NCBI GenBank assembly: GCA_021432655.1
Contig: MU271225.1
Location: 1 to 64,000 of the forward strand
Source of the DNA: Atractiella rhizophila
Taxonomy: Eukaryota
DNA: 64,000 nucleotides
Direction: 5' to 3'
The notes beneath the pieces were generated by a model. It worked only from the letters and a program-made list of their open reading frames with translations, was not told where the DNA came from and ran no database searches. The position numbers were made by a program, and so were the translations under genes. Below, piece after piece: positions 41,046 to 64,000 of the stretch (its first letter is position 1; the number at the start of each line of letters is the position of its first letter).

Positions 41046-41874
41046 TTCCCTGTCTAGAACGGAAAGCAGGTAAATAAGATCCAGTGCGGGGCACAACTCT
41101 GGGTTCGTTGGTATCAGATCGAAGGGTGGACAGCCTGAATTTGCCTATGTGCAAAGGTTGGGAGACAGGACTAGCGCTTGTGCTCGCAAGGCTGAAGCTC
41201 CCAGGGTGCAGTTTGAATGGAGACATGAAAGGCGTAGATGGACTCTCCGTAGCTCGCGAAGCATCGCCATCGAAGATACTGGCAACTGTAGCTGAAATGG
41301 GGGAGGGATGCATGTCCTGTTGTTCAGGTGACAGCGTGTAGACCGGAAGGGTTGGATGAGCGGGAGGAATGTTGAATTGTGTCTGGATCTTAGGGAGGGT
41401 GAGTCGACGCGTTTGCGCTTTGGAGGGTAACGTGCTTCGTTTCTGATGGATGAAACGATTGCAGAGGCCTTCGAATTCGGGGAAGGACATGTTGAGGTTG
41501 CCCATCAGATTCTCGAGCGCGAGCATTCGCTGTTCCTCAATGGATTCGGACACGTCGTGACTCGAGGCGACTGGAATTGGCATGCTTTGAGACCCAAAGA
41601 TTAGAGGGTAAGCAGCTGGATGCTCACCCGCCTGCGTCTGACCATTGCTCCTCATTCGAACTTCAAGTTGGTCGCAGATAGCTTGCCGATCTTCTGGCTC
41701 GGTTTGGGAAAAGAACTGGTCGTAGTCGAACGCTGCTGAATCGGGATCGGGAGAGTACTGCTGAAATTGCTGCCAACCTAAGCTGGACGGCGAGCCAATG
41801 TGTACAGCATGATTCTGATCAAGGAAGTGGTGGTAGCCCCTGTCGTTGTAGGTGTGGGTGTGGTATTCAGCCAT
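40400..41874 (-). CDS. Hypothetical protein: low-complexity N-terminus, Cys/His-containing C-terminal domain; 3' end approximate
   Basis: 451-aa ORF followed by a GT-AG intron (~40548-40596) and a further exon. No family recognised. Confidence 0.55.
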
Positions 41875-43404
41875 GATGCTGAGTTGGGGGTTTCACATGG
41901 ATCGTGGGAAAGGGGAAGGATACAGGAAGAAGCACCAATGAGGATGCCCTTTTGTATTCCACCACAGGCAGGAAGTGGTCGTCGTTCCCCAGGTTCAACA
42001 GGTTCAGTCCGTTTTTCCGGAGACACAAACGTCGGAGCGATGCTCTGTCGTAAAAGCACATCTTTCCGAACCACAACCAACCTCAATTCAAGGTCAAATA
42101 AAGCTCAACTCAGAACTGGCAGGTGAACGTGGAATCCACCCGGCCTACTTTGATTGACCCGTCATAGTCGTGAACAGAGCGTCATCTCGCTCAGGTGAAG
42201 AGGTCCGTGACCACTTGTTATCTTGTGCGATGAACATCCGGCAGATCTCAGAATCGCGGTGGTTCGGTAAAGTGGGCTGACTATCAGCTCCAAGTTGGAG
42301 CAAGTTGGAGCAGGTGAATCATCACCGCGTCTTACCTCATACTCAACATCAAGTGGCCTGCACTCATGGCCTGTGATAACACCTTTCTTTCTTTCTTCCA
42401 TGCAAGCATACTGGTCGGCAATCACTGCTTCGCCACACGGTAAACTTTGCTTTGTTGGCCCACTGTCCACTGTTGCCATTGGTCTGCTGCGCAGGTATTT
42501 GGAACGGTGGTTGAGGAAAACTGAAATGTTAACTTGTCGCTACACCAACACAAAGTTGAGCTTTACCTTCGCATGAAAAGCCTTATCTCCTGTTTTGTTT
42601 TAGCAGGAGCGGACCTGCGAACAGGCTGAACGCACCAGCAACGCGAAGACGTATGGCGTCTTGCTCGAGAGTTCATTGTGAGAAAACCAACTCTGCTGGC
42701 AGCCCCCACAAACTTGTAGGCGAGCCATGAGCTGACCTTCAACTTCTCAATGTCTCGAGACTCGTTCGTTTGTTGCTCTGAAGGTTAATGCCAAGCAGTC
42801 CATAAAGAAGTATCCCTAACTCGGCGTCAGAAAGAAGAACATTGAAGGCTGACTTCCAATCAGCTCGACCGCCCCACTGGGTTGCTTCGAGTCAAGGTCC
42901 ACGTCGTGGCATCATCGTAAGATATGGCGCCGACGATGGCCAGAAAGAAAAATCGTGGAAACCGTAAACCCACAAAGGACACTGTCTCGGATGACTATAT
43001 GAGCCTTGCAATATTGCCTCGTCCGAGCAGAATCGATCTACGAACGAAGAAGTCCGGAAGGTATCACTCATTTGGGGTGGACCGCGTAAAGGCAGCGTTT
43101 TGCAGCAACATCGAAGAATAGAATCATGTTATTGGAACAATGGACCGCCGTGTCGTGAATGCATTGAGGCAACGAGTTCTGAACGCATAAATTGCTGAGA
43201 CCGGACGAGTGAAACGTAAGACTGTGAGAACGAGAATTCAGAACTCATGGCGCGTAAAGGCGAGTTTACATAATAACTGTGTTGATTGGAATCAGTAAGC
43301 AGAGGTGTAAGCAACAATCACGGCAACCTGAAAACCTATGGATTCGATTGCGTTGAGGTCTTTCCTCTGGGTCAAACTAGCCCGCCTTCCTCCAATTTTC
43401 TCGT

Positions 43405-43549
43405 ACATTCACTGCGAGCCGTTCAAAAAATGCATTTCTGTTTAAACTGTCACATTTCCCCAGGTACCATGGACTGTATTTTGATGCCACCATGCATCCT
43501 AGCGCACACATGAGTTTAAATTCCTTTGCGAATGTAGTCACTCTGTATC
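43405..43549. repeat. 145-bp direct repeat, copy 1 (left flank of NLR copy A)
   Basis: Matches 48538-48682 with 2 mismatches. Confidence 0.95.
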
Positions 43550-46500
43550 GTTTAACAGTTGTATTTCCAAGTACATTTCGAACCATATGAACAGCGGAGC
43601 TAACCGGAGTGAGACCCCTTGGGCAGACAATTGTCAGGACAATTGCACAAGCTCCGTGATCTGGAATGCAAGCCTGTCTGTATCAAGCGACGAACTCTCT
43701 CCGCGTCCCTCTTTCACACACTGTTGACACCGTGAGGGAAGGCAAGATATTTCAGTTGTTACCGGAGAATTTCAAGTTAGGTAGGGTTTTGCAGTTGGTT
43801 GTTATTCCATAGGAAACTATCAGAGGGTCCCATCGGGTCAGATGTGAGTGTTACTTCAAGTTTATCAAGCCTGGGAGTTGAGTCGCCTTGAACTGGGTTG
43901 AACTCTCTCGTAGCGAAGTGAGCGAAATGACTTGCTCTTTGTTTCTCCCTCAACGCTACAATATTTTGATGTCTCACACCTGCTTCACATCTCAGACTGA
44001 AGTACATATCCCCTAGTAATCACATCCAAAACACAATTCTTTGTCGCAAACTTTCACTTCCTTTGGCAGCAGAGATCTTCACGCTTAGATGGTCTATTGC
44101 TTTGACATGTGCCATCGTTGCTTTTGTCAAACATTCGTTTTCTGTGGTCGACGGATTCCTCAAGTTGCCCTGAGCTCCACGATTTCTTCCACGCATTTGT
44201 ACGTACCGATAGAAATGTATCATATTCCTACATTGTTCTCCTTTTGCCTCGCTGAATGCTCACATTTCGCTTCCTTTCTCCTTTGCAGCTTTCGTCCAGA
44301 TATCTGACCTGCGTTTATTTAGCGTGATCTAACGTTCAATAAATCAGTTATATTCCAATACCGTTGGCCACTAACATCTTTTGTCCTAAGCAATGGATAC
44401 CAAGGCGTGTGCGCCATGTTCATCAAATCCTAGCCACCATGACGACCCCGACAATTTGTCCGAAGCCGACGGCGCATTCAGCGCAAATCCGCAACGACTT
44501 CGTCCTTCCATTGAATCCGTCGTAGTTCAAAACCTTTCAGTATTGCAGCTCTATTGTCAACCCAGTCCTTTTCTGAGTGCCAACCCGACAATTTTTGCGC
44601 CTCAATTTCGCTTCCTATCGCGCAACATAACGCCAATTATCTCCAGAGATGTCACCGCAACTCCTTTCTCATCCCACGTCTCCTCCAGCGTTCAACCTGT
44701 CAAGATTTTCAAAGTTTCCGAAAATATCAAGAAAGCGAATCCGCTGGGATTACGGATTCTTTGTATCGACAATGGAGGCATCCGCACCTTCTCCTCTCCA
44801 TATATGCTTGAACCCATCATGCTTCAAGCCGCGCAGCTTCTCAACGCACAAGACGATGAAGAGCTTAGACCTTGCGATGTTTTTGATCTCATTTGTGGGG
44901 CTTCTACTGGCGGCTGGATCGCACTTATGCTGGGGAGGCTGGGAATGACTGTTCGTCAATGTATTGCGGCATATGAAGAGATCAGGCGAAGCGTATTTCT
45001 AGACGAGGTTTCACATCCTAACGGCGAGTACGTGTACTCGGCGGAGAGTCTCGAGAAGACTTTCATCTCCATCATCCAGCAGCACACACGCTCTTCTGAA
45101 GATTATGCCAAATCACTTCCAATGAAAGATAGTTCTCTTCAGGACAGATGCAGAACATTTGTCCTCTCTACCTACGGGTCTAACGTTGTCGTTTCTACGG
45201 AGATGCGCACCTACGATATTCGCCGTGCCGGTTCCTCTCCGTTTATACCTGCTTCCCCTCATGCGGTCTGGCAAGCTGCAAGGGCAACTGCCGCTGCTCC
45301 TCCGTTCTTCTCACCCATCGAGATGGGTTCAACCCGCTACGTTGCTCTGGGTAGGGACAACCCTACAGCAATAGCTATCGAAGAGGCGAGGCGGATTTGG
45401 GGACCCACTAGTGAGATTGCCTGTCTTGTATCTCTCGGTCCGGGGATTGCACAGGCTGTCAACTTGGGCCACACTCAAGATGATCTCGAGCGAGCGTTGA
45501 AGGCGATTGTCGCGGATTGCTCAAAAGTGGCGAACGACGTGAAGAGGAAGATGCACGATCTTGATCTGGACCATTGTTATCATCGGTTCTCGGTTGATAC
45601 GGTTGGAGACTTCGAGTGGGAGGCGTGGGAGCGAAAAAATGATGTGGTAGGCTGCACGAAGGCTTACATGGAAGCAATGAATCACGAAGTGCTCAAGGCA
45701 ACTAAGGCTCTCGTGCAAGGTATTCTCCCTGATTGATTGTGGTTGCATGCTAACCTTCTCCTGTTTAGCTTGTAAACAACGCATAGCAGTGATCAGAAAG
45801 ATTCCGCTAGATAAGCCTGGAGCCTGCTACGGAAGAAAAGAGGAAGTCCAAAATGCGATAGACGTCATCGTCACTAACAAGAAACACCTCGCGATCTTCG
45901 GTGGCGCAGGAAATGGGAAGTCGACTGTGGTTCTCCAAGTTTTACATGCGAAGGAAGTCAAAGATGCGTTCACGACTATTGTGGACGACAAAGAGGAAGA
46001 CTTTCGTTTCTTCGCACGGTGTGACACTGCTGATACTTTTTCTGCACTCTGCACACAACTTCGCCAACAGGTGTTTGGAATAGCTTGTCTACCTGAAGAA
46101 ACGGAGCTCGATGCTGTTGCACGATATTTCCGCGATCACAAATGTCTCCTTATCTTGGACAATTTTGAGACTCCCGCGGAATTGGACAAAAAGAACCTGC
46201 AGAAATTCTTTCAAAATCTTCTTTTTGCCACCTCGCAGTCCATTCTCGTCGTGGTGCATCGAGGCCATCAAATCTATCGAGTGGATGTCACAAAGGTGAA
46301 ATTTCAAAAGCTAGTGATTGGAGGACTTAGCAACGCCGCCGGAAAAGAACTATTCGAGTACACTTATGAGGGAAAAGAGGATTGTGCAGACCAGCTACTG
46401 GAAACCATTTTTGCCAAGCTGGATCACCATGCCTTGTCAATCAAACTCTTTGTTCTTCGTGCGAACGGAGAATCAATGAAAAAGATTTCAAGTCTGTTGG

Positions 46501-48538
46501 GCGAATGGGAGGCCAAGAAAACGGATATGCTCTGGAAAGAGGATAGTGAAGAGACCGCAACTCTCGCAACTTCAATATTTTTTTCACTTAATTCACCTCG
46601 TCTGAAAGCTCATGAGGACCTAAGTATGTTTATTCTCGCTATCCTATCTTGGACCCCCAACGGGCTTCACCGCAATGACATTGTGGCTGTAACGGAGAAG
46701 TATCTCCCAGGTTTCAAGGAAGCTGACAAAGTCATCACTTCAATTTTGTCAGTTGGACTCGCTGAAGAGATGAATGATGCCTTGACGGACTCGGCACGAT
46801 TGCGGATGCTTGCACCAATTCGCGAACACTTTAAGCACATGGTCCTGTGTTCCGATCCTCTCTTTAATTCGATAACTGTCGCTATGTCACTCCAGCCTCT
46901 TGCGAACCACCTCATGCAGAAAGCTGAGAGAAATATCGAACAGTTCGAGGCTGACAAGAATCATGACGCATTGCTTCTCTTCCGTGAACAATACCCAAAC
47001 CTTGAACATGTCCTGCTAGCAAGCATGTTGCACCTGCCAGACCCATTATCAATCATTCATCGTTTGGAGAACATGTCAGAGTTCCTACGCGTGAAACACT
47101 ACCTCTCAACCTCGCTCTTCGAGCAGGCAAAGCATGTCGTGAACACCGCGCTGGGAGTGACGCCTTTTGTGAAACAGAGTCACTCAAACTTGTTGCGACT
47201 GAAGTGCTCGTTGTCTAAGTTCCTTGGCTACTGTTTATGCAATGAGGGGGACCATGAGAATGCACTGAAGGCGTTCGACGAGGCAAAGCAGATCTATGAG
47301 GAAGTAGGAGATCGACAGGGTCAAGCTGCCTGCATCATGAGCATCGGGGAGATCGATTTCCGATGCGGCCGAAACAAGGCCGCATTGAAGGCGTTCAAGA
47401 CGGCGAAGGGGATCTATGAGGAAGTAGGACATCGATACGGTCAAGCTATGTGCATCTGCAATGTCGGGGAGATCAAGGTTCGATGCGGCTGTAACGAAGA
47501 CGCGCTGAGGGCGTTCGCAGAGGCAGAGGAAATCTGTGTTGAAGTGGGGCATCGACTCGGTCAAGCCAACTGCATCTTGAGTGCCGGTGAGATCCAGTCT
47601 CAATACGGCCGGAACGAGGATGCACGGAAGGCGTTTGAGGATGCGAGAGTGATGTATGCGGAAATTGGAAATCGACTCGGTGAAGCCAACTGCATCTTCA
47701 AGGTCGCAGAGATCGATTTTCGATGCGGCCGAAATGAGGACGCGTTGAAGGCGTTCAATGAGGCAAAACAGATCTATGGGCAAGTGGGAGTTCGACGGGG
47801 GCAGGCCCACTGCGTCCGCAACGTAGGCGAGATCGATTTTCGATGTGGCCGGAATGAAGACGCGCTGAAAGCGTTCAACAAGGCAAAGCAGATCTATGAG
47901 GAAGTAGGACATCAACAGGGTCAAGCTACCTGCATCATGAGCGTTGGGGAGATCGATTTCCGATGCGGTCGAAACGAGGACGCATTGAAGGCGTTCAAGA
48001 CGGCGAAGGGGATCTATGAAGAAGTAGAACATCGACTCGGTGAAGCCAGCTGCATCCGAAATGTCGGGAAGATCGATTTTCGATGCGGCCGGAACGAGGA
48101 TGCACGGAAGGCGTTTGAGGAGGCTAAGATGATGTATGAGAAAGCTGGAAATCGACTGAATCAAGCCAACTGCATCTTCAATGTCGCAGAGATCGATTTT
48201 CAATGCGGCCGAAACGAGGACGCGTTGAACGAGTTCAATAAGGCACAACAGATCTATGAGGAAGTAGGAGAACGTCAAGGTCAAGCCAACTGCATATTCA
48301 CCGTCGGGGAGATCGAGTCTCGATGTCTCCGGAACGAAAACGCGCTGACGGCATTCAACGAGGCAAAGCAGATCTATGTGGAAGTGGGTCATCGACTGGG
48401 TCAAGCCAACTGCATCTTGAGCATTGGGGAGATCCAGTCTCGATGCGGCCGGAATGAAATTGCGCTGAATGCGTTCGGGGAGGCAAAGGATATCTATGGC
48501 AAAATAGGGCATCGATTGGGTGAAGCCAACTGCATTCA
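43548..48538. repeat. ~5-kb segmental duplicate of 53797-58789
   Basis: Colinear match at offset 10249, then 10251 after a 2-nt indel. Includes ~850 bp of upstream region and the intron. Confidence 0.97.
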
Positions 48539-48578
48539 CATTCACTGCGAGCCGTTCAAAAAATGCATTTCTGTTTAA
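44393..48578 (+). CDS. Fungal NLR copy A: patatin-like phospholipase + STAND NTPase + TPR repeats, TPR region truncated
   Basis: Patatin LRILCIDNGGIR, PCDVFDLICGASTGG, WQAARAT.AAP.FF. A 49-nt phase-1 intron at 45720-45768 (GTATTC..GCTAAC..TTTAG) fuses the two ORFs in frame. Walker A GGAGNGKS, Walker B LLILDNFET, and 40-aa TPRs. Confidence 0.9.
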
Positions 48579-48682
48579 ACTGTCACATTTCCCCAGGTAC
48601 CATGGACTGTATTTTGATGCCACCATGCATCCTGGCGCACACATGAGTTTAAATTCCTCTGCGAATGTAGTCACTCTGTATC
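48538..48682. repeat. 145-bp direct repeat, copy 2 (right flank of NLR copy A; supplies its new C-terminus)
   Basis: Matches 43405-43549. Confidence 0.95.
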
Positions 48683-50899
48683 ACTCTCTGAATATTCAGC
48701 TACCTCATTCTTCTCAGGACACCCAGAAGTGGTAGATAATGGCCTCTATCCTGACAAACCATTATTCTTACGCAAAAACCTCCTTGTCAAAACTAAGAAT
48801 CGCTCTCAGCCAGCTGACTCACCGTCACGAGCATTTCGGAAGAAGGTTATTGAGGCTGGTACCTACCACATCTTTCTTGTGGATCGGAATCTTCGCCTGG
48901 AAGAAATCTTATACTCTTCAAGCTAGCCTAAACTGCTAGACGAGTTTGGATTGGTTAAGTGTGAAAAGCAGTGTGTTTTCTGTACAAGCTACTGGGAGTA
49001 GTACATGTATTGATATTCCATGAGTTTAGATTTACAGGAGTTGACCTAGATCACTATAAAGCAAAGCGAAGGGGGCTCCTCCAAACTCTCAAACCAGATG
49101 ATATCAAGCACCCCGAAGTGATTGTTATGGATGTCATGAATGGAACGGTTGTTATAAATGGCAAGCTTTCCTGTGGACTCTGACGTTGAAATGAGGTGTT
49201 TCCAAAAGCTGTAAGTCTTCTCTTGCCCAGTCTTCTCAACATGAGAATACATTTGTATTGAGCTGTTATAGAAACCTGAAAACACTCATTTACAGCGTTC
49301 TGCCATCTGTTCATCTTGCTTGCCAGAAAAGTGCATGGGGATCCAATTGGATAGTGAGGAGGATACCACTGCTATGCTCACCATCTCCTCCAACGCCCTC
49401 ATCTAAATCGAGAACTTTTGGAGCCAGATAACAAGCCACCTTCACTACCTTTTTTTTGGAATGTCACAAAATCGAACCAGTCTCCATCTTCCACAAGTAT
49501 CGATGTGGAAGCACAACTACTGCCAGTTTCTCTGCCTATGAATGCCTCCCAATCTCAAACGTCACAGACCTTTACTTCAGCAACAGGCACTTCATTTGCA
49601 GATTATCAGGAGAAGAGTACGATTCAAATATACTCTGATGCCTTCTGGAAACTTGCCGACTCCAGTTCAAAGCTACTTCTTCAATGACGGAGAAGCAGCT
49701 GAAGTTGTTTGCTGAGAACTATAATAACCCCCAGCTTATCTTGAACCCTGTGTATTACAACGCAGAGAAGCATGTTCCGAACGACAAAATCATTCACAAT
49801 GGTTTAGTGCTCAAAATCGGTTTATTTGCAATTGAGAAGGAGGTTGCTAGTCGTATTCAGAGAGTAGCCAGAGGAGACTGTGAGTTTGAACACTTTTATT
49901 GACAAGAAAAGGAAGTTACTAACATTGTTGAGCAGCGATCAAACCATTCTGGAAACTACAAACAACACTCCCTCCACCAGTGAAAGTAACATACACAGAG
50001 CCAACAAAGAAGGGCAGCCTTGGAGCTGTAAAGATTTGTGGCCGATGCAAGAAGCAAAAGGATGGGTATGGTGAGAAGAATACAAACAACCACAAGTGCA
50101 ACATGATGGGGCCATGGGAGCATAAACGCACCCTCCTTTCTCTTGCTGGTGCGAAGTCATCTTTTCTTGGTTCCTTTTTCTTATTACTCAGCTTTTATGC
50201 CATAAAATAACTTCCCCTGCAAGCGTGAGACCCAGAGTTTTGATTGGTCTCGCACCTTGCAGGTATGTATTTCATTCTCATATAGAACATACAATAAGAG
50301 AGTTTTGATTGGTCTTGCACCTTGCAGCACCTTGCAGTCCCGCTCGCCCCACCGCTCGTAATCTTTATCACAACATCTGTGACAACAACGTTATGCATTG
50401 GTCCAAGGTTCCGTACCCACTGCCCAATACCAACTTATGCAATGTCCCACTATGCAAGAATATGTTGGGGAAGTGGAGCATATATGACAATGCGGTAAAG
50501 AAGTTTTTCACAGATATCAAAGATGGGAAAGTGCCAGATGTTGATCAATTGGTGGAGATGGTCAACATGCGAGTTTTTATGGCAATGACATGGGTAGAGG
50601 AAAAGATGGACAGGGTTTGACAAAAGAAACGTTGCATATTGCGGCAGGGAAGAGAAAGTAGTAGTTCACTTAGTGAGTAGTCAGATGCGAATGGATATCT
50701 TTGGTGATTTGCAGTCTGGGACATATAATGCACCAGCCTCAAGTTTTGAAATTTTTTATAAAGATCATGTCAACTATTCTTAATCAAAGGCAAATCTTGA
50801 GCCCATATTTGATCAATTACAGCAGCAGTTGCAAGAGGACTGAATGCACTGTTGCAGAGTCGGACAATGTAAATATAATGTGAGTTGCTGCTCTGCTTT

Positions 50900-51794
50900 G
50901 TTAATATCCCCTCATGCTTATAATCCTTATACGTCATGATAGCTAGGTCTCAGGCCGCACATTCGATGTACTCACACTGAGATACGATGGATAATGGCAA
51001 AGTAATATGTAAGCATATTGTTAGGACTGACACTATGTGCGGTCACCGACGGACGATGCGTCTGGAGTGGAGATAAACCTAAGAGCATGATATGACATGA
51101 AGACTAACCTGTAGTGGAGATAAACCTAAGAGAATACTCTAAGGTCACCTCCACTACTCTCCAATCTATATATACAAGCGGAATAACACTGCCACAGAGT
51201 GTAGAGAAGAGCAGATGAAACATGTAAGAGAACTGAAAAGGGGAAGTGACAGTGGGATTACACGGAGTTAATAAGAGGAGAATAGACACAGAGTGGCAAC
51301 GGGAGACGTAGAGTGGCGACCGGGCGCCGACTCGCAGGGAATGCAAATGGGCGATAGGAGACGCAATCCGGCGAACGGGCGCCGATTTGCCTAAGATGAA
51401 ACCTGACACATAGCTTGACATATATGGGGTGTGTATTTTTCCTTCGCTTTTTATGATGTTTGCTCACTCTTATCACACATCAAATGTAGTAATATCTAAC
51501 CCTCAGGCCCATCACTCACCGCCCTCACATCTAAAATATGAGAGATATTGGCGAAGCAGTGGGGAATTGCAATTGTTGACATATCTGAGGTGCATATTTT
51601 GTCCTCCGCTGTTTTAATGTTTGCTTGTTCTCAATACACATTATGCGTTATTGAAGCTACATCTCAGGCCTCCCATTCGCGCTGCTCACCTCTAAAAATC
51701 GATGGATAATGGCGAAGCAATGGAGAATTGCATTTTTTGACGTATATGAGGTATGTGTTTTGTCCTCGCTTTTTTTAATGTTCACTCATCGTTA
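50900..51794. repeat. Degenerate 161-bp tandem repeat array (~3.5 units)
   Basis: TTGAC(A/G)TAT recurs at 51415, 51576 and 51737. CTCAGGCC..CTCAC..GATA(A/T)TGGC(A/G)AAG recurs three times, the first upstream of the solo LTR. Confidence 0.8.
51019..51408. mobile_element. Solo LTR (390 bp)
   Basis: TGTTAGG...CCTGACA inverted termini, flanked by CATAT/CATAG (5-bp TSD with 1 mismatch). Removing it restores the 161-bp repeat unit. Confidence 0.75.
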
Positions 51795-53107
51795 CACTGC
51801 CAATCGAAGTTGATCTGAATCCAGCCGTGCCCCGCAAATTCTGAATCCAGAACTCAGATATGGCTGGACGGGCCAATGCAGTTGGCTGGACAACTGGAGA
51901 AAGATGAGATCGCATCTGGATTCAGATGTAGACGACCGCTTGCGTCTGAACGCGCCCTTCATCCAGTCGTAGTGTCAGCTGGACTTAGCTGCTAACACCT
52001 GAAATCAGATGATTTGCACCTGCGCTCAGCCGTCCCTCCGTCCGAAAGCACCTGCCAACAGCCGTAAGCAGTCACCTGACAACCTGCCCTCAGCCGCTCC
52101 ACTCATCCGTATCCAGGCGCACCAAGCTGTAACCGTCCGGCCAGACAGCTGCATGCATTTGCATTGCACTTCTGCCTTGAGCTGAGAATGCATTGTATGT
52201 CCGCCCACATGCGTCTGCCCTTTACCTGTAGATACGAAAGTTTCTTCTTTTCCTTCTGTTCACCTCTTGGGATTGTAACCATTTTGGCTTCTTGTGAGCT
52301 AATTAACTTTTATTTGAAATATCATCAAAATGCAATTCTACACAACAGTATTGACAAAGATGGTCTGGAAAGTTCCACAATAATGAGCAGTTGGGAGGGA
52401 TCAGTAAGTATGGAGAGGATGTTGACAGAGAGAGCTGGGTCCCGGAACGAGCCACCCAGGACCTTGATGATCGGCGTGAGAGGAGTGGCTGACATGTGGA
52501 ACAAACCTAATATGGTCTTGTCAGCAGTGGAAGGACTTAGACGTTTTCGAAAAAGTGAAGTCCTGATGTGTGGAAACGCTTGCTTCAAAGGGAGGTTAGA
52601 AAATACGAAAACCAGTAAGCATCTCAATAGTTTAATGGTATGTACACTGACTCCTTTGCTAAACTTCTCGGTTCAATCCCCACTGACGACAAAGCTCTGA
52701 ATCACCCAAAAAATCAGAAATAATAGTGTGGGAAACATGGAGGCAACGGCAGAAAACCCCAAAGCAGCGGAAAGGGTGTTTCTTTTTTTAAACCTGTTGT
52801 CAAACTACTGGCTGCATACAGATGCTTACAGATGAACACAGATGTCATTGCAGGTGTGAGAGGATGGACGATGCAGGTACAAGCAGATTAACATCTTCTG
52901 GATTCAGACGCGCGTCATTTGCACGCGGACACGTGCTCAGATGCAACCAGTCGCAGACGGCTACAAGCAGCCGCAATTCACATGACTTCAGTTTGCAGAT
53001 ATGGCTGGACAGCTGAGTCCAGTTGATGATCAGAACAATACAGTTGTGATTGTCTGGTTACAGTTTTTAGATTCAACTGACCACCACCTGAAACTGAATT
53101 GGTAGTG
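51795..53107. mobile_element. Non-autonomous TIR DNA transposon, CACTA/CMC-like (1313 bp)
   Basis: Left end CACTGCCAAT; right end ATTGGTAGTG (reverse complement CACTACCAAT). TA on both sides. Both subterminal regions are rich in short repeated motifs (CAGATG, GGCTGGAC, CTGGATTCAGA). Confidence 0.65.
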
Positions 53108-54641
53108 TATTACATGTTATACAGGGCAATAACAGCATCATATACGTTATGTTCAAGCGACTTAACAGGAAAACACATTGGGTATTGATGTCAGAAGGCA
53201 CGATCACATTTCAAGTTTCCATATATCTATATCTTTATTTCGTTTTTTTTTTTTGCTTCAGAGGCAGACACATTCCTTTTCATAGACACTGGAGCAGTCT
53301 AAATTATGTCTATGATGAGTCATTAATCATTACTACATTTTTGCATTCAATAATATTCGAGGTCGACCACTTTTGTGTTTGCAGCCCGATGCGGCACAAA
53401 CCTCCCCGCAATTGAACACAGGTCTCGGCATTCCGCATTTATTTCCGACATTGCGGGACTAGGCGGAGTTGACATCACAAGCAGAGCAAGCCAGTTAAGG
53501 AGTGTTCATGATTCGTTGTGCGCGAAAACCTTCCCTCCTCTCCTGCCCGGGGGCTTCGTAAACGCACCGAATTGTGTACCTGATTTCCTACTCCTTAGCT
53601 TGATTTCGCTATCGGGTGTCGACTCCAATCGAACGTCTATTAACGAGTTTGAAACTGAATGTATGAAAGTATAGGAGACAGAGGATGGTGGTGGTTCTAC
53701 CTGAGACAGAATACCAGCAGAGAGGAGGAAAACGGGCAGACGGTAGGAAGGCCGGTTTAAACTCTAACGAAAACCAGATGTAGCGCGAACGAACAGTCGT
53801 TTAACAGTTGTATTTCCAAGTACATTTCGAACCATATGAATAGCGGAGCTAACCGGAGTGAGACCCCTTGGGCAGACAATTGTCAGGACAATTGCACAAG
53901 CTCCGTGATCTGGAATGCAAGCCTGTCTGTATCAAGCGACGAACCCTCTCTGCGTCCCTCTTTCACACACTGTTGACACCGTGAGGGAAGGCAAGATATT
54001 TCAGTTGTTACCGGAGAATTTCAAGTTAGGTAGGGTTTTGCAGTTGGTTGTTATTCCATAGGAAACTATCAGAGGGTCCCATCGGGTCAGATGTGAGTGT
54101 TGCTTCAAGTTTATCAAGCCTGGGAGTTGAGTCGCCTTGAACTGGGTTGAACTCTCTCGTAGCGAAGTGAGCGAAATGACTTGCTCTTTGTTTCTCCCTC
54201 AACGCTACAATATTTTGATGTCTCACACCTGCTTGACATCTCAGACTGAAGTATATATCCCCTAGTAATCACATCCAAAACACAATTCTTTGTTGCAAAC
54301 TTTCACTTCCTTTGGCAGCAGAGATCTTCACGCTTAGATGGTCTATTGCTTTGACATGTGCCATCGTTGCTTTTGTCAAACATTCGTTTTCTGTGGTCGA
54401 CGGATTCCTCAAGTTGCCCTGAGCTCCACGATTTCTTCCACGCATTTGTACGTACCGATAGAAATGTATCATATTCCTACATTGTTCTCCTTTTGCCTCG
54501 CTGAATGCTCACATTTCGCTTCCTTTCTCCTTTGCAGCTTTCGTTCAGATATCTGACCTGCGTTTATTTAGCGTGATCTAACGTTCAATAAATCAGTTAT
54601 ATTCCAATACCGTTGGCCACTAACATCTTTTGTCCTAAGCA

Positions 54642-57600
54642 ATGGATACCAAGGCGTGTGCGCCATGTTCATCAAATCCTAGCCACCATGACGACCCCGA
54701 CAATTTGTCCGAAGCCGACGGCGCATTCAGCGCAAATTCGCAACGACTTCGTCCTTCCATTGAATCCGTCGTAGTTCAAAACCTTTCAGTATTGCAGCTC
54801 TATTGTCAACCCAGTCCTTTTCTGAGTGCCAACCCGACAATTTTTGCGCCTCAATTTCGCTTCCTATCGCGCAACATAACGCCAATTATCTCCAGAGATG
54901 TCACCGCAACTCCTTTCTCATCCCACGTCTCCTCCAGCGTTCAACCTGTCAAGATTTTCAAAGTTTCCGAAAATATCAAGAAAGCGAATCCGCTGGGATT
55001 ACGGATTCTTTGTATCGACAATGGAGGCATCCGCACCTTCTCCTCTCCATATATGCTTGAACCCATTATGCTTCAAGCCGCGCAGCTTCTCAACGTACAA
55101 GACGATGAAGAGCTTAGACCTTGCGATGTTTTTGATCTCATTTGTGGGGCTTCTACTGGCGGCTGGATCGCACTTATGCTGGGGAGGCTGGGAATGACTG
55201 TTCGTCAATGTATTGCGGCATATGAAGAGATCAGGCGAAGCGTATTTCTAGACGAGGTTTCACATCCTAACGGCGAGTACGTGTACTCGGCGGAGAGTCT
55301 CGAGAAGACTTTCATCTCCATCATCCAGCAGCACACACGCTCTTCTGAAGATTATGCCAAATCACTTCCAATGAAAGATAGTTCTCTCTTCAGGACAGAT
55401 GCAGAACATTTGTCCTCTCTACCTACGGGTCTAACGTTGTCGTTTCTACGGAGATGCGCACCTACGATATTCGCCGTGCCGGTTCCTCTCCGTTTATACC
55501 TGCTTCCCCTCATGCGGTCTGGCAAGCTGCAAGGGCAACTGCCGCTGCTCCTCCGTTCTTCTCACCCATCGAGATGGGTTCAACCCGCTACGTTGCTCTG
55601 GGTAGGGACAACCCTACAGCAATAGCTATCGAAGAGGCGAGGCGGATTTGGGGACCCACTAGTGAGATTGCCTGTCTTGTATCTCTCGGTCCGGGGATTG
55701 CACAGGCTGTCAACTTGGGCCACACTCAAGATGATCTCGAGCGAGCGTTGAAGGCGATTGTCGCGGATTGCTCAAAAGTGGCGAACGACGTGAAGAGGAA
55801 GATGCACGATCTTGATCTGGACCATTGTTATCATCGGTTCTCGGTTGATACGGTTGGAGACTTCGAGTGGGAGGCGTGGGAGCGAAAAAATGATGTGGTA
55901 GGCTGCACGAAGGCTTACATGGAAGCAATGAATCACGAAGTGCTCAAGGCAACTAAGGCTCTCGTGCAAGGTATTCTCCCTGATTGATTGTGGTTGCATG
56001 CTAACCTTCTCCTGTTTAGCTTGTAAACAACGCATAGCAGTGATCAGAAAGATTCCGCTAGATAAGCCTGGAGCCTGCTACGGAAGAAAAGAGGAAGTCC
56101 AAAATGCGATAGACGTCATCGTCACTAACAAGAAACACCTCGCGATCTTCGGTGGCGCAGGAAATGGGAAGTCGACTGTGGTTCTCCAAGTTTTACATGC
56201 GAAGGAAGTCAAAGATGCGTTCACGACTATTGTGGACGACAAAGAGGAAGACTTTCGTTTCTTCGCACGGTGTGACACTGCTGATACTTTTTCTGCACTC
56301 TGCACACAACTTCGCCAACAGGTGTTTGGAATAGCTTGTCTACCTGAAGAAACGGAGCTCGATGCTGTTGCACGATATTTCCGCGATCACAAATGTCTCC
56401 TTATCTTGGACAATTTTGAGACTCCCGCGGAATTGGACAAAAAGAACCTGCAGAAATTCTTTCAAAATCTTCTTTTTGCCACCTCGCAGTCCATTCTCGT
56501 CGTGGTGCATCGAGGCCATCAAATCTATCGAGTGGATGTCACAAAGGTGAAATTTCAAAAGCTAGTGATTGGAGGACTTAGCAACGCCGCCGGAAAAGAA
56601 CTATTCGAGTACACTTATGAGGGAAAAGAGGATTGTGCAGACCAGCTACTGGAAACCATTTTTGCCAAGCTGGATCACCATGCCTTGTCAATCAAGCTCT
56701 TTGTTCTTCGTGCGAACGGAGAATCAATGAAAAAGATTTCAAGTCTGTTGGGCGAATGGGAGGCCAAGAAAACGGATATGCTCTGGAAAGAGGATAGTGA
56801 AGAGACCGCAACTCTCGCAACTTCAATATTTTTTTCACTTAATTCACCTCGTCTGAAAGCTCATGAGGACCTAAGTATGTTTATTCTCGCTATCCTATCT
56901 TGGACCCCCAACGGGCTTCACCGCAATGACATTGTGGCTGTAACGGAGAAGTATCTCCCAGGTTTCAAGGAAGCTGACAAAGTCATCACTTCAATTTTGT
57001 CAGTTGGACTCGCTGAGGAGATGAATGATGCCTTGACGGACTCGGCACGATTGCGGATGCTTGCACCAATTCGCGAACACTTTAAGCACATGGTCCTGTG
57101 TTCCGATCCTCTCTTTAATTCGATAACTGTCGCTATGTCACTCCAGCCTCTTGCGAACCACCTCATGCAGAAAGCTGAGAGAAATATCGAACAGTTCGAG
57201 GCTGACAAGAATCATGACGCATTGCTTCTCTTCCGTGAACAATACCCAAACCTTGAACATGTCCTGCTAGCAAGCATGTTGCACCTGCCAGACCCATTAT
57301 CAATCATTCATCGTTTGGAGAACATGTCAGAGTTCCTACGCGTGAAACACTACCTCTCAACCTCGCTCTTCGAGCAGGCAAAGCATGTCGTGAACACCGC
57401 GCTGGGAGTGACGCCTTTTGTGAAACAGAGTCACTCAAACTTGTTGCGACTGAAGTGTTCGTTGTCTAAGTTCCTTGGCTACTGTTTATGCAATGAGGGG
57501 GACCATGAGAATGCACTGATGGCGTTCGACGAGGCAAAGCAGATCTATGAGGAAGTAGGAGATCGACAGGGTCAAGCTGCCTGCATCATGAGCATCGGGG

Positions 57601-59186
57601 AGATCGATTTCCGATGCGGCCGAAACAAGGCCGCATTGAAGGCGTTCAAGACGGCGAAGGTGATCTATGAGGAAGTAGGACATCGATACGGTCAAGCTAT
57701 GTGCATCTGCAATGTCGGGGAGATCAAGGTTCGATGCGGCTGTAACGAAGACGCGCTGAGGGCGTTCGCAGAGGCAGAGGAAATCTGTGTTGAAGTGGGG
57801 CATCGACTCGGTCAAGCCAACTGCATCTTGAGTGCCGGTGAGATCCAGTCTCAATACGGCCGGAACGAGGATGCACGGAAGGCGTTTGAGGATGCGAGAG
57901 TGATGTATGCGGAAATTGGAAATCGACTCGGTGAAGCCAACTGCATCTTCAAGGTCGCAGAGATCGATTTTCGATGCGGCCGAAATGAGGACGCGTTGAA
58001 GGCGTTCAATGAGGCAAAACAGATCTATGGGCAAGTGGGAGTTCGACGGGGGCAGGCCCACTGCGTCCGCAACGTAGGCGAGATCGATTTTCGATGTGGC
58101 CGGAATGAGGACGCGCTGAAAGCGTTCAACAAGGCAAAGCAGATCTATGAGGAAGTAGGACATCGACAGGGTCAAGCTACCTGCATCATGAGTGTTGGGG
58201 AGATCGATTTCCGATGCGGTCGAAACGAGGACGCATTGAAGGCGTTCAAGACGGCGAAGGTGATCTATGAAGAAGTAGAACATCGACTCGGTGAAGCCAG
58301 CTGCATCCGCAATGTCGGGAAGATCGATTTTCGATGCGGCCGGAACGAGGATGCACGGAAGGCGTTTGAGGAGGCTAAGATGATGTATGAGAAAGCTGGA
58401 AATCGACTGAATCAAGCCAACTGCATCTTCAATGTCGCAGAGATCGATTTTCAATGTGGCCGAAACGAGGACGCGTTGAAGGAGTTCAATAAGGCACAAC
58501 AGATCTATGAGGAAGTAGGAGAACGTCAAGGTCAAGCCAACTGCATATTCACCGTCGGGGAGATCGAGTCTCGATGTCTCCGGAACGAAAACGCGCTGAC
58601 GGCATTCAACGAGGCAAAGCAGATCTATGTGGAAGTGGGTCATCGACTGGGTCAAGCCAACTGCATCTTGAGCATTGGGGAGATCCAGTCTCGATGCGGC
58701 CGGAATGAAATTGCGCTGAATGCGTTCGGGGAGGCAAAGGATATCTATGGCAAAATAGGGCATCGATTGGGTGAAGCCAACTGCATTCAGGGTATTGGGG
58801 AGATCAAGCTGTTGTATGAACAGAATGAAAAAGCCCTAGAATGTTTCCAGGAGGCAAAGGAGCTTTTTCTGGTGGCGAAAGACCTCGGAGGTCAACATCG
58901 CTGCCTTATGAACATGGGTCAAATTTATGCTCGAGACAGTCAGGGTATTTTCAAGACAATCGAAGTTTATGAGGAAGCAGTGAATATGAGTAGCGCAGCA
59001 GGTGGCCACAGCGAAGCCTATAGCAGGAAGCGTCTTGCCATGCTTCTCTTCCTCTCATCTCAGTACCAGCGCGCTAGAGAAGAATTTACTCTTGCCCGTC
59101 AGCTCTTTGCTGATTGTTTGGCCAACTCCGAGGTGCGCGATTGTGACAGTTGGCTTCAGAAGACAAATGGACAGGCAGATATATAG
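54642..59186 (+). CDS. Fungal NLR copy B: patatin + STAND + full TPR array; +2-nt (CT) frameshift in the patatin domain at ~55385
   Basis: Same motifs as copy A; intron at 55971-56019; 1062-aa STAND-TPR ORF. GATAGTTCTCTCTTCAGG here versus GATAGTTCTCTTCAGG in copy A. Confidence 0.88.
57496..58870 (+). repeat. Coding 120-nt tandem repeats (~11 TPR units with high internal conservation); also at 47245-48538
   Basis: Unit consensus GHRxGQANCIxxVGEIDFRCGRNEDALKAFxEAKQIYEEV. Confidence 0.95.
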
Positions 59187-62800: not shown

Positions 62801-64000
62801 CACAACAACATCTTTGTTCACGAAAGGTGAACGGATTGATTGTGACTTGTGGGGTCCCGCACCAGTACCTGCATTGCAGAGTGGCTACCGTTATGGACTC
62901 GGAATCGTAGAAGAGTCCACTGCCATGATATGGTGGATTCCCCTACGACTCAAGTCACATGCCGCCACAGCTCTGAGAATGTGATCACAGAGACGGAACG
63001 TCGTCATGGCGTTAAGGTGAAGATCCTGTGAAGCGATAACGGCGGGGAGTTCAAGTCAGTCATTTTCAAATCTTTCATACAGAAATCAGGTATCACTCAC
63101 GAGACTTCAATTCCATACGTTCACAACCAAATGGGGTTTATGGAACGACGTTGGTATACAATATTCAATGTAGCTTGCACAATTCTCTTGGAATCTGGTT
63201 TGCCTTTATCTTTCTGGGAGAAAGCAGTTCAGTTTGCTGTTCACACTTTAAATCATCTATCCACATTTTGGCACAGATCTTGGAAATGTCCTTTGAAATT
63301 ATGGACAGGCATAGCCCCTGATGTTTCTTCTCTTCGTACTTTTGGCTGCTTAGCTATTGTTCACATTCCAAAGGAGAGGCAGATATCGAAACTCCATCCG
63401 AGAGGGGCACGAGGATACTTCGTAGGATATCTGCCTGGCGTGAAGGGTTGGCTCTTTTGGGTACCGTCGCAAAAGCGATTTGTGGAAGCGAAGGATGTCA
63501 GATGCTTCGAAGATCAGTTTTATCGGGATCGGAGTGTGGAGGATACAGAACGCCTAAGTGACTGGACTCTCGACAAGTTCATGCCCTCTGAGTTTCATAG
63601 CTTAGCTGACAAGGTTCCCGTTAACATTCCAGGCCCTGACGAAGTAGTACCGCCCACCACACCATCCAATAACCCTTCCGTACAACTTCCTCCTTCCAAA
63701 CCCACCACGACGTCTTCACCTACCCCAGATATTCATATTCGGACGGAGTTAGATAACGTTGAGGGAGGGTTGCTGAGTCCTACCGCAAGCGAAGAAGCTG
63801 TGCAGGCACAAATGGTCCCTGTTAGACAAGTACACAAGCGTATACCACAACACTCACCTGCCCCATATCCACCCCCAAACCAACGTCCACAATGTGATAT
63901 ATCGCGAGTCGATTATACTGCCCAGCTGAAGGGTAAGCCGTCAAACCAAAAGGGAGGAACCATACACATTCCAACTACTTTCTTGATGCACACTTCCGAT
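59545..64000 (+). mobile_element. Ty1/Copia LTR retrotransposon, degenerate, runs off the window
   Basis: Gag-like ORF, degenerate knuckle CVYYLGMGHISSGC, protease YVDSAATVHMS, WHSCLGH..CTICAAGK, integrase DLWGP / SDNGGEF / G..ERR, and LRTFGC..KL.PR..GYFVGY. Order is protease then integrase; frameshifts and a stop near 62980-63031. Confidence 0.93.

What the first reader, a model, noticed from the sequence alone, without database searches (positions are those of the whole stretch)
44393..59186. Duplicated patatin-STAND-TPR NLR (PLP-1-like architecture) in a basidiomycete-type genome
Seen: the two ORFs in each copy are one gene joined by a 49-nt phase-1 intron, giving effector (patatin), STAND NTPase and ~11 near-identical TPRs. 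Known: this architecture matches the ascomycete allorecognition NLR PLP-1 (Neurospora; Podospora het-z), which guards SEC-9 and triggers cell death. Inference: this is a candidate non-self recognition or immune locus. Its NTPase has atypical motifs (DHHALSI instead of GLPLA; MLAPIRE instead of MHD), suggesting an independently assembled version. No SNARE gene is visible in the window.
Basis: partly seen in the sequence, partly recalled or inferred. Interest (0 to 1): 0.7.

Follow-up and report, generated by a model that had tools for sequence, protein, structure and literature searches.

The report
Duplicated patatin NLR gene in Atractiella
This is a real, transcribed fungal immune-receptor-type gene (lipase-like domain, nucleotide switch, repeat sensor) that was recently duplicated, but it is an ordinary member of a catalogued fungal NLR class, and each copy is damaged in a different way.

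Summary
The gene is real. A 49-nt GT..AG phase-1 intron (45720-45768) is removed in a 1250-nt contig of run X3, while DNA contigs of X1/X2 are colinear there. Spliced copy 1 encodes 1378 aa: a patatin domain, a divergent NB-ARC-type STAND NTPase and 40-aa TPR units.

The duplication is a 5-kb segment (43548-48538 = 53797-58789, 99.5% identical). The copies are not equivalent. Copy 2 carries a 2-bp insertion that frameshifts the patatin exon. Copy 1 stops at the duplication edge and lacks the last TPRs and the C-terminal cap.

The TPR units are about 56% identical, not near-identical. The "atypical" NTPase motifs are the signature of a large STAND family (1204 relatives). That family is distinct from the NB-ARC of ascomycete patatin NLRs, so independent assembly is supported.

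The patatin domain keeps the nucleophile Ser but has no residue at the catalytic Asp position. No SNARE gene was found in what I scanned. A neighbouring gene is 100% identical to an Atractiella rhizophila protein. That places the window in Pucciniomycotina, a subphylum where a 2014 survey found no NLRs.

Verdict: a new member of a known kind. A PLP-1-like mechanism is plausible, PLP-1 membership is not supported, and function is untested.

The parts
43405..43549 (.). 145-nt repeat A, immediately left of copy 1
   Evidence: Direct-repeat family D14, 99% identical to 48538-48682; 2 mismatches.
43548..48538 (+). Duplicated segment, copy 1 (promoter-proximal region, 5'UTR, whole CDS up to repeat unit 11)
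   Evidence: blastn self-match 43548-48538 = 53797-58789: 99.5% identity, 23 mismatches, 1 gap. The left junction is bridged by DNA contigs X1 record 1 and X2 record 9.
43781..44322 (+). 5'UTR intron; an alternative donor gives 43844-44322
   Evidence: X3 joints 43776->44319 (cut +4) and 43843->44323, both GT..AG, sharing one acceptor. Sequence read.
44393..45719 (+). Copy 1 coding exon 1: S/P-rich N-terminus plus patatin domain
   Evidence: ORF. Pfam Patatin covers residues 124-318 of P0001, E 1.7e-15. X3 contigs are colinear over 44323-45717.
44897..44914 (+). GASTGG nucleophile elbow (GxSxG; Ser kept)
   Evidence: Alignment A2; coordinates.
45332..45364 (+). Site where the DG[GA] catalytic Asp should be; reads ..RYVALGRDNP, with no Asp at the dyad position
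   Evidence: MAFFT puts a gap at the Asp column. HMMER against iPLA2beta puts Tyr opposite the Asp of LDGG. D192 of AbCapV lies in that profile column.
45720..45768 (+). 49-nt phase-1 intron, spliced
45769..48578 (+). Copy 1 coding exon 2: NTPase, linker, 10 full TPR units, a cut 11th unit, 13 foreign codons, stop
45798..47180 (+). NOD (NBD-HD1-WHD plus helical linker). Walker A GGAGNGKST at 45900-45926, Walker B LLILDNFE at 46146-46169, DHHALSI within 46419-46442, MLAPIRE at 46806-46826
   Evidence: AF2 model of the identical copy 2 stretch: pLDDT 91.1, pTM 0.90. Foldseek: Apaf-1 3sfz E 5.8e-9. Coordinates.
47244..48537 (+). TPR array of copy 1 (40-aa / 120-nt units)
47034..47088 (-). Possible antisense-strand intron (55 nt; CT..AC on +, which is GT..AG on -)
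   Evidence: X3 joint 47031->47087 (cut +2), one contig, depth 62.1, side 44; sequence. Not followed up.
48538..48682 (.). Repeat A', immediately right of copy 1; it supplies copy 1's last codons and its stop
53797..58789 (+). Duplicated segment, copy 2 (the parental copy, since its reading frame continues beyond the segment)
55383..55384 (+). 2-bp insertion in a TC run; it frameshifts the patatin exon of copy 2 and gives a premature stop at 55623-55625
56020..59186 (+). Copy 2 exon 2: NTPase, 11 regular and 1 degenerate TPR units, ~80-aa cap, stop
   Evidence: The 132 aa unique to copy 2 still reach TPR_12 at 30.1 bits, equal to the cutoff.

Best explanation
The locus holds a recently duplicated, transcribed NLR-type gene of a fungus that is Atractiella rhizophila or a very close relative. 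The protein has three parts: an N-terminal patatin-like domain, a divergent NB-ARC-class STAND NTPase, and a C-terminal array of 40-aa TPR units.

Inferred mechanism, by analogy with characterised NLRs. The TPR array holds the NTPase in a closed ADP-type state until it binds a ligand. Nucleotide exchange then lets the NTPase oligomerise. That clusters the patatin domains, which act on membrane lipid and kill or wall off the cell.

Shown here: the gene structure, the splicing, the domain identities, the closed Apaf-1-like predicted fold, the duplication and the damage to each copy. Inferred only: ligand sensing, oligomerisation, lipase action and any role in non-self recognition.

The gene works like PLP-1 but is not of its lineage. 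Its NTPase belongs to another STAND subfamily, so the architecture was assembled separately or the N-terminal domain was swapped.

In this assembly copy 2 (the parent) is frameshifted. Copy 1 is an open 1378-aa derivative lacking the C-terminal end of the sensor. This fits the birth-and-death turnover typical of NLR families.
For: Splicing and transcription. X3 contigs remove 45720-45768 and a 5'UTR intron with two donors; all three joints are GT..AG. No such joint is listed for DNA runs X1/X2.

Open reading frame. The spliced frame is 1378 aa. Homologues are colinear across the junction.

Patatin domain. Pfam 58.2 bits against a cutoff of 27.7. PADLOC phospholipase effector model, E 1.8e-19. 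The family profile matches AbCapV 8zr9 at E 5.8e-31.

NTPase.
- The family profile matches an ascomycete patatin NB-ARC-TPR protein with hhalign probability 98.2%, E 3.7e-14.
- It matches plant ZAR1 (6j5t) at E 3e-12.
- The AF2 model has pLDDT 91.1.
- Best Foldseek matches are ADP-state Apaf-1 (E 5.8e-9, TMq 0.58), MalT and resting NRC1/NRC2.
- Walker A, Walker B and the sensor Arg are present.

TPR. TPR_12 E 1.8e-54.

Separate NOD lineage.
- Single-sequence phmmer finds none of five other patatin-NLR NODs.
- The NOD-family HMM scores the window at 322 bits and two Mycena proteins at 313-328 bits. The other patatin NLRs score 19-58 bits.
- In a 161-sequence tree the window family (6 tips, support 1.0) is nested among sequences with SIR2, TIR or kinase N-termini. 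The other patatin NODs lie beyond branches of 1.40 and 1.46 substitutions per site.

Duplication and damage.

Taxon. A neighbouring SSD1-type exon is 100% identical to an A. rhizophila protein.

Known class. Patatin is almost invariably associated with NB-ARC in fungal NLRs (PMC4986451, passages). PLP-1-driven death needs patatin activity and the P-loop (PMC12881547, passages).
Against: - The canonical catalytic Asp of the patatin Ser-Asp dyad has no counterpart in the window protein. The same holds for the two close homologues that cover the site, P0045 and P0006. Lipase activity is therefore doubtful.
- The oxyanion motif reads DNGGIRT rather than DGGGxRG.
- Within the full ORF the NTPase reaches no Pfam cutoff: nSTAND1 25.7 against 27.1, NACHT 23.0 against 26.7, NB-ARC 15.9 against 23.5. 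As an isolated domain it passes only nSTAND1, by 0.7 bit.
- Neither copy keeps the whole ancestral frame.
- X3 is not on record as RNA (kind '?').
- Contigs cannot tell which copy is transcribed.
- A 55-nt joint with antisense-strand GT..AG ends, at higher depth than the sense contigs, suggests an overlapping antisense RNA.
- The differences between the window and three runs are few. There is no sign of the deep allelic divergence of het loci, although only up to 3 samples were seen.
- No function was tested.
Confidence: 0.7

Rival explanations
1. It is a true PLP-1/HET-Z-type allorecognition locus: an NLR that guards a linked, polymorphic SEC-9 SNARE and kills on fusion of unlike strains.
For: It has the same three-part architecture as PLP-1 (PMC12881547 passages). 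The patatin domain's best long relatives are ascomycete patatin NLRs at E ~1e-30 and 31-32% identity. The PLP-1/SEC-9 system is said to have emerged repeatedly in separate lineages (PMC12881547 passages).
Against: - No SNARE or SNAP-25 family hit in 33 of 78 listed ORFs >=120 aa across the window, in 122 ORFs of 55-119 aa in 40.5-64 kb, or in 145 ORFs in 20-40.5 kb. Short ORFs in 1-20 kb were not scanned.
- The NOD is of another subfamily: 18% identity at profile level, and separate in the tree.
- The catalytic Asp is absent.
- There are few differences between the window and three runs.
Confidence: 0.07
2. Both copies are decaying remnants in a repeat-rich, duplication-prone region. The transcripts are noise and no functional receptor is made.
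For: - Copy 2 is frameshifted and copy 1 has lost its 3' end.
- The dyad Asp is lost.
- The segment lies next to a sequence that many high-depth contigs of X1/X2 match (48642-49500) and to a copia-type element at 62-64 kb.
- No protein >=50% identical is returned from the 1.84-billion representative library, so no public gene model seems to exist.
- There are two further tandem duplications in the window.
Against: - Copy 1 keeps an uninterrupted 1378-aa frame.
- The RNA-like contigs are correctly spliced at three GT..AG introns.
- Differences between the copies inside the CDS are 7 non-synonymous to 8 synonymous, fewer replacements than expected for free drift. With only 15 sites this is weak.
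- The Asp-less motif is shared by the two close homologues that cover it, so it is a family trait rather than recent decay.
Confidence: 0.15
3. The tandem pair is an assembly artefact or is strain-specific. The organism really has one copy, and the two versions are haplotypes or alleles.
For: - The letters of X1, X2 and X3 are a mosaic of copy 1 and copy 2 states. Four sites differ from both window copies.
- No run shows the 2-bp insertion.
- The odd A-X-A' layout, with a 145-nt flanking repeat.
Against: - The two copies have unrelated left flanks and different right continuations inside one contig.
- DNA contigs of X1 and X2 bridge copy 1's left junction: 548 nt on one side and 44 nt on the other.
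- Contigs of all three runs end exactly at 48537, the last base shared by the copies, as expected if both continuations exist. Breaks at 43592, 47410 and 48010 coincide with sites where the copies differ.
- The junctions show 2-nt and 1-nt microhomology, as end-joining or template switching would leave.
- X1 and X2 are one sample and may be the source of the assembly, so they are not independent.
Confidence: 0.08

Closest known systems
PLP-1 (Neurospora crassa), HET-Z1 (Podospora anserina) and Botrytis Bcvic1-type patatin/NB-ARC/TPR NLRs
   Same: N-terminal patatin-like domain, central P-loop STAND NTPase of the NB-ARC class, and C-terminal TPR sensor in one polypeptide (PMC12881547 passages). 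The expected logic is the same: sensor, then oligomerisation, then lipase effector.
   Different: - The NTPase belongs to another subfamily: 18% identity at profile level to an ascomycete patatin NB-ARC protein, and separate in the tree. I could not obtain PLP-1 itself, so Xylaria proteins of the same Pfam architecture (P0016, P0020) stood in for it.
- No SNARE neighbour was found.
- The dyad Asp is absent.
- The host is in Pucciniomycotina.
The catalogued fungal NLR class 'Patatin + NB-ARC + TPR' (Dyrka et al. 2014, PMC4986451)
   Same: The same domain assortment. That survey reports patatin almost invariably with NB-ARC, TPR units mostly longer than 34 aa, and combinatorial domain assortment.
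   Different: - The survey found no NLRs in Pucciniomycotina and itself named divergence of the NOD as a possible reason (passage read).
- Here the NOD indeed fails the NB-ARC and NACHT cutoffs.
- The repeats do not reach the survey's 85% 'highly conserved' criterion.
STAND NTPase-TPR proteins with SIR2, TIR, kinase, CHAT or MLKL_N N-termini (Pfam NB-ARC / nSTAND1 hits)
   Same: These are the nearest relatives of the NTPase outside its own small family: 25-33% identity with shared motifs LDNFE, LD..PLA and RLR.LAPIRE.
   Different: They have other effector domains.
CapV, the CBASS patatin-like phospholipase effector (AbCapV, PDB 8zr9)
   Same: It is the best solved relative of the patatin domain family: E 5.8e-31 for the family profile, and PADLOC phospholipase effector E 1.8e-19. 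It is also an immune effector switched on by assembly into a higher-order form (PMC12480259 passages).
   Different: CapV is switched on by cGAMP and uses an S58/D192 dyad. The window protein has the Ser but nothing at the D192 column.
Apaf-1 and plant NLR NB-ARC modules; MalT
   Same: The predicted fold of the NOD matches closed-state Apaf-1 (TMq 0.58), MalT (0.61) and resting NRC1/NRC2 (0.53).
   Different: Sequence identity is 13-16%. The His of the MHD motif is not kept; the family has LAPIRE there.

Membership tests
Patatin-like phospholipase (Pfam PF01734) | Profile score above the curated cutoff | tested here: met
   58.2 bits against 27.7, E 1.7e-15, profile positions 1-177 of 191.
Patatin-like phospholipase (active enzyme) | Nucleophile Ser in GxSxG | tested here: met
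   GASTGG at 44897-44914, aligned with GTSTGG of relatives.
Patatin-like phospholipase (active enzyme) | Catalytic Asp in DG[GA] (D192 of AbCapV) | tested here: not met
   There is a gap at that column in MAFFT and a Tyr opposite it in HMMER against iPLA2beta. D192 sits in that profile column. The same holds in P0045 and P0006. Whether another acidic residue substitutes could not be tested, because no coordinates are returned.
NB-ARC (Pfam PF00931) | Profile score above the curated cutoff | tested here: not met
   15.9 bits against 23.5. 18 of 50 aligned family members match NB-ARC at E <= 1e-5.
NB-ARC / AP-ATPase class of STAND NTPases | Homology at profile and fold level to NB-ARC proteins; NBD-HD1-WHD order | tested here: met
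   hhalign probability 98.2%, E 3.7e-14. ZAR1 at E 3e-12. Foldseek Apaf-1 at E 5.8e-9 over 440 columns.
nSTAND1 (Pfam PF20703) | Profile score above the curated cutoff | tested here: inconclusive
   27.8 against 27.1 for the isolated NOD but 25.7 in the full ORF. Only profile positions 17-157 of 379 are matched.
STAND NTPase | Walker A GxxxxGK[ST], Walker B acidic residue, sensor Arg | tested here: met
   GGAGNGKST, LLILDNFE and VVVHRG. K41 and R155 are nearly invariant and D121 is invariant in the family alignment.
TPR (Pfam TPR_12 and related) | Repeated TPR profile matches | tested here: met
   TPR_12 at E 8.8e-47 (copy 1) and 1.8e-54 (copy 2), with 7-8 stretches. Period 120 nt.
Fungal NLRs with 'highly conserved repeats' (Dyrka 2014 criterion) | Over 85% identity between repeats over at least 100 aa | tested here: not met
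   Mean 56%, maximum 80% between 40-aa units. The criterion was read in PMC4986451.
PLP-1 / SEC-9 allorecognition system | Linked SNARE (sec-9) partner gene | tested here: not met
   No SNARE family hit in 33 of 78 listed long ORFs across the window, or in 267 short ORFs covering 20-64 kb. Short ORFs in 1-20 kb and exons under 55 codons were not covered. [quoted passage not shown]
PLP-1 / SEC-9 allorecognition system | NTPase orthologous to the PLP-1 NB-ARC | tested here: not met
   The NOD lies in another clade than the NB-ARC of four other patatin NLRs. PLP-1 itself was not available, so proxies were used.
PLP-1 / SEC-9 allorecognition system | Divergent alleles kept in populations; death on co-expression of unlike partners | not testable with these tools
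   Only contigs of up to 3 samples were seen, with few differences.

The most novel reading that the evidence does not exclude
This gene family may be the hidden NLR repertoire of Pucciniomycotina, missed by surveys because its NTPase falls below the NB-ARC and NACHT thresholds. Its patatin domain has given up the Ser-Asp dyad, so it may kill or signal by something other than canonical phospholipase A chemistry, for example lipid binding, membrane insertion, or a Ser with a different base. The truncated but open copy 1, lacking the end of the sensor, could then act together with the full-length locus as a modifier or decoy, as in paired NLRs.
Probability: 0.12. Interest if true: 0.6.

Novelty: new member of a known kind. 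Interest (0 to 1): 0.33.

Why it matters
Fungal NLRs are counted in the tens to hundreds per genome, but only a handful have been studied. A 2014 survey reported none in Pucciniomycotina, the subphylum that also holds the rusts (PMC4986451).

This locus shows that at least one Pucciniomycotina genome carries expressed NLR-type genes. Their nucleotide-binding domain is too divergent for the usual Pfam cutoffs, so repertoires in this group may be under-counted.

It is also a compact example of NLR birth-and-death: a 5-kb duplication with microhomology junctions, one copy frameshifted and one truncated. And it is a natural test of whether a patatin effector needs its catalytic Asp.

Beyond that it is an ordinary member of a catalogued architecture. 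Nothing here shows a role in allorecognition or in the plant-root lifestyle of the fungus.

Tried and rejected
- Whole-genome search: no genome is held for this window.
- The look-up of sequencing runs: no RNA holder listed.
- X6 ('RNA?', a guess) gave only two 151-nt contigs at depth 3 on 44528-44678 and 44819-44969. That is too little to use.
- X3 has no or almost no cover on 43000-43650 and 48642-49500. Missing cover is not evidence, so I did not use it to call X3 an RNA run.
- I looked at contig depth to get the copy number in X1/X2: duplicated segment 227-279 against 207 for the left flank in X1, and 294-401 against 344 in X2. I dropped it, because the tool states that this depth is no copy number.
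- Which copy is transcribed, and whether the 2-bp insertion exists in reads, could not be settled.
I used stop-to-stop ORFs instead.
- Antisense ORFs 47238-48680 and 57489-58835 (481 and 449 aa): no Pfam family. I read them as a by-product of the 120-nt periodic repeat.
- RIP-like mutation between the copies: 17 of 23 differences are transitions but with no consistent sequence context, so I dropped it.
- PADLOC gave nothing for the NTPase. NCBIfam gave only sub-threshold ABC-transporter P-loop hits.
- Spacer 48683-53796: no Pfam hit in its ORFs of 55 codons or more and no inverted repeats of 40 nt or more. Its nature is unknown.
- Literature. Searches were run. No paper in the library's search listings pairs Atractiella with NLR terms. 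'Atractiella', 'Puccinia' and 'Cronartium' do not occur in 11 of 13 supplementary files of PMC9815663; files 9 and 10 were not searched.

Full report
**What is there**

The window holds a 5-kb segment twice: 43548-48538 and 53797-58789. The two are 99.5% identical over 4993 aligned bases, with 23 mismatches and one 2-bp gap.

In copy 1, two long ORFs (44390-45736 and 45681-48578) are separated by a canonical intron at 45720-45768. It has GT..AG ends and a CTAAC 12 nt before the AG. Coding exon 1 (44393-45719) is 1327 nt, so the intron is phase 1. The spliced CDS is 4137 nt, giving 1378 aa with one terminal stop.

**Direct evidence for the gene model**

One run search and one read-laying run were allowed. 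Run X3 is of unrecorded kind. Its 1250-nt contig (record 19, depth 35.3) lies on 44867-45717 and 45767-46165 and skips exactly 49 nt with GT..AG ends. DNA contigs of X1 (record 3) and X2 (records 11, 12) cross the same place without a gap.

X3 also shows two further GT..AG joints, 43781-44322 and 43844-44322, which share one acceptor. These are a 5'UTR intron with alternative donors; the ATG at 44393 lies 70 nt into the next exon. X3 contigs are colinear with the genome from 44323 to 45717, so the patatin exon has no further intron.

Three GT..AG joints that are not listed for the DNA runs are what one expects of RNA. I treat X3 as RNA on that basis only.

Four homologues (P0043, P0006, P0045, P0046) run without interruption across the position of the exon junction.

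**The copies are not equivalent**

Copy 2 has two extra bases in a TC run (55383-55384). They shift the patatin frame after residue 249 and lead to a stop at 55623-55625.

Copy 1 ends with the duplicated segment. After 48538 it reads 13 codons of unrelated sequence and stops. Copy 2 goes on with the rest of unit 11, a degenerate unit 12 and an ~80-aa cap. That copy 2-specific tail still reaches TPR_12 at its cutoff. Copy 2 is therefore the parent, and copy 1 is a 3'-truncated derivative.

Copy 1 is flanked by a 145-nt direct repeat: 43405-43549 = 48538-48682, with 2 mismatches. The junctions carry 2-nt and 1-nt microhomology. One replication template-switch event, or end-joining, would give this A-X-A' layout. 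That is inference.

No contig in any run shows the 2-bp insertion. Contigs drop variants, so the insertion may be real or an assembly error.

Inside the CDS the copies differ at 15 sites, 7 of them replacements.

**Is the duplication real?**

- DNA contigs of X1 and X2 (one sample, possibly the source of the assembly) bridge copy 1's left junction.
- Contigs of X1, X2 and X3 all end at 48537, the last shared base.
- Contig breaks at 43592, 47410 and 48010 fall on sites where the copies differ.

This fits two continuations being present, but it is not proof. Long reads are needed.

**Domains**

*Patatin.* Pfam gives 58.2 bits against a cutoff of 27.7. The PADLOC phospholipase effector model gives E 1.8e-19. 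The family profile matches AbCapV at E 5.8e-31.

The nucleophile elbow GASTGG is kept. The catalytic Asp of the DG[GA] motif is not:
- MAFFT leaves a gap at that column.
- HMMER against iPLA2beta puts a Tyr opposite the Asp.
- AbCapV's D192, shown by mutation to be essential (PMC12480259, passages), sits in that same column.

The two close homologues that cover the site, P0045 and P0006, lack the Asp too. Three other basidiomycete patatin proteins in the alignment have also lost the Ser. Two of them, P0034 and P0038, are NLRs; the third, the Cronartium protein P0021, is not. All seven ascomycete proteins in the alignment keep the Asp.

*NTPase.* Within the full ORF it reaches no Pfam cutoff. 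As an isolated domain it passes nSTAND1 by 0.7 bit. Even so, it is clearly a STAND module of the NB-ARC class:
- hhalign of its family profile against an ascomycete patatin NB-ARC-TPR protein gives probability 98.2%, E 3.7e-14. DHHALSI lies on that protein's HLPLAIT motif.
- The family profile finds plant ZAR1 at E 3e-12.
- The AlphaFold model is confident, with pLDDT 91.1 and pTM 0.90.
- Its best matches are ADP-state Apaf-1, MalT and resting NRC1/NRC2.

*Repeats.* They are 40-aa units with a 120-nt period. Copy 1 has 10 full units and a cut 11th. Copy 2 has 11 regular units and one degenerate one. Mean identity between units is 56%, with a maximum of 80%. This is well below the 85% criterion used for 'highly conserved repeats' (PMC4986451).

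**Relatives and independent assembly**

Only 6 of 1.84 billion representatives match the NTPase at E <= 1e-30, and the best is 44% identical. 1204 match at E <= 0.001. No protein 50% or more identical was returned, so this gene seems absent from public protein sets.

The named close relatives are two Atractiella rhizophila proteins, at 43% and 37% identity.

The family consensus carries LDNFE, LD..PLA and RLR.LAPIRE.

N-terminal domains among the relatives:
- Of 30 relatives scanned: 7 carry SIR2_2, 2 an FAD-oxidoreductase domain, and 1 each TIR_2, CHAT, Pkinase, DUF4062 and patatin.
- Of the 50 aligned members: 18 match NB-ARC, 17 nSTAND1, 7 NACHT, 5 SIR2_2, 4 TIR_2, 2 MLKL_N and 1 patatin.

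An HMM of the NOD core scores the window at 322 bits and two Mycena proteins at 313-328 bits. The NODs of five other patatin NLRs score only 19-58 bits. Single-sequence phmmer does not find those five at all.

I built a FastTree of 161 NODs. Of 165 hits, 4 were dropped: the identical copy 2, plus hits matching fewer than 250 of 360 profile positions. Four patatin NLRs were kept on purpose despite that rule. In this tree:
- The window family is a clade of 6 with support 1.0.
- It is nested among sequences with other N-termini.
- The other patatin NODs lie beyond branches of 1.40 and 1.46 substitutions per site.

The patatin domain, by contrast, finds ascomycete patatin NLRs at about E 1e-30 to 1e-34. 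The two domains thus have different affinities. That supports separate assembly or a domain swap, which is the known habit of fungal NLRs (PMC4986451, abstract).

Limits of this test: sampling is restricted to the best 150 hits, the root is arbitrary, and proxies were used instead of PLP-1 itself.

**Surroundings and organism**

An SSD1/DIS3L2-type exon at 33206-34114 is 100% identical to an A. rhizophila protein and 68-75% identical to those of other Pucciniomycotina.

No SNARE family was found in 33 of the 78 listed ORFs of 120 aa or more across the window, or in 267 ORFs of 55-119 aa covering 20-64 kb. Short ORFs in 1-20 kb were not scanned.

**Comparison with what is known**

PLP-1 is a patatin / NB-ARC / TPR NLR. 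Its killing depends on patatin activity and the P-loop, and it recognises SEC-9 (PMC12881547 and PMC10197012, passages). Patatin + NB-ARC is a catalogued fungal NLR assortment (PMC4986451, passages).

The locus works like these on paper, but it fails three membership features of the PLP-1 system: NOD lineage, a SNARE neighbour and the dyad Asp.

Its one point of wider interest comes from the 2014 survey, which found no NLRs in Pucciniomycotina and suspected divergence of the NOD. This gene fits that suspicion. I found no later statement on the matter in searches, or in 11 of 13 supplements of the 2022 update.

**Verdict**

This is a new member of a known kind and of modest interest.

Noticed in passing
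window 47034-47088 (- strand): An X3 contig (depth 62.1, higher than the sense contigs at 34-35) skips 55 nt with CT..AC ends, which is GT..AG on the opposite strand. In the sense frame this would break the ORF. It suggests a spliced antisense RNA over the linker and TPR region.
   Followed up: partly
window 43405-43549 and 48538-48682: A 145-nt direct repeat flanks copy 1, with 2-nt (TC) and 1-nt (A) microhomology at the two junctions. This layout is expected from a template-switch or end-joining insertion rather than from a transposon.
   Followed up: partly
window 26688-27606 / 27607-28515 and 38202-39627 / 39621-41048: Two further head-to-tail duplications, 97.1% and 95.6% identical. The second overlaps ORFs on the - strand with no Pfam family (38983-39621, 40519-41892). 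The region is prone to duplication.
   Followed up: no
window 24464-25327 (-): An ORF matching the Crinkler effector N-terminal domain (PF20147, E 2.1e-10, 41.7 bits against a cutoff of 24.6).
   Followed up: no
window 48642-49500: The summed contig depth in DNA runs X1/X2 is 1400-14000 here, against about 250-400 over the gene, and many short contigs are laid. This is probably a dispersed repeat. No Pfam hit was found in its ORFs of 55 codons or more.
   Followed up: partly
window 61980-64000 (+): A copia-type retrotransposon fragment: gag_pre-integrase E 1.5e-7 and retroviral polymerase SH3-like domain E 1e-23. It runs off the end of the window.
   Followed up: no
window 44142, 44192, 44248, 44517: All contigs of X1, X2 and X3 carry a letter that differs from both window copies at these four sites, while the two window copies agree with each other. 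This could reflect gene conversion between the copies, or a strain difference.
   Followed up: no
window 44736-44952, 46906-47122, 48208-48424: Many contigs at 90-95% identity pile up here in the DNA runs (116 of 192 contigs laid in X1). This hints at further paralogues of this gene family in the genome.
   Followed up: no
window 28549-28863 (-), 6912-7685 (-), 17103-17543 (-), 9431-9862 (+), 1632-2039 (-): Other genes recognised in the window: DUF6533, DUF3533, a beta-lactamase-family exon, Med21 (below cutoff) and a DEAD-box helicase exon. The SSD1/DIS3L2-type RNB gene lies at about 33.2-35.7 kb.
   Followed up: no
window 43666-43728 (+): A short upstream ORF starts at an ATG in the first (5'UTR) exon of the NLR transcript.
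   Followed up: no
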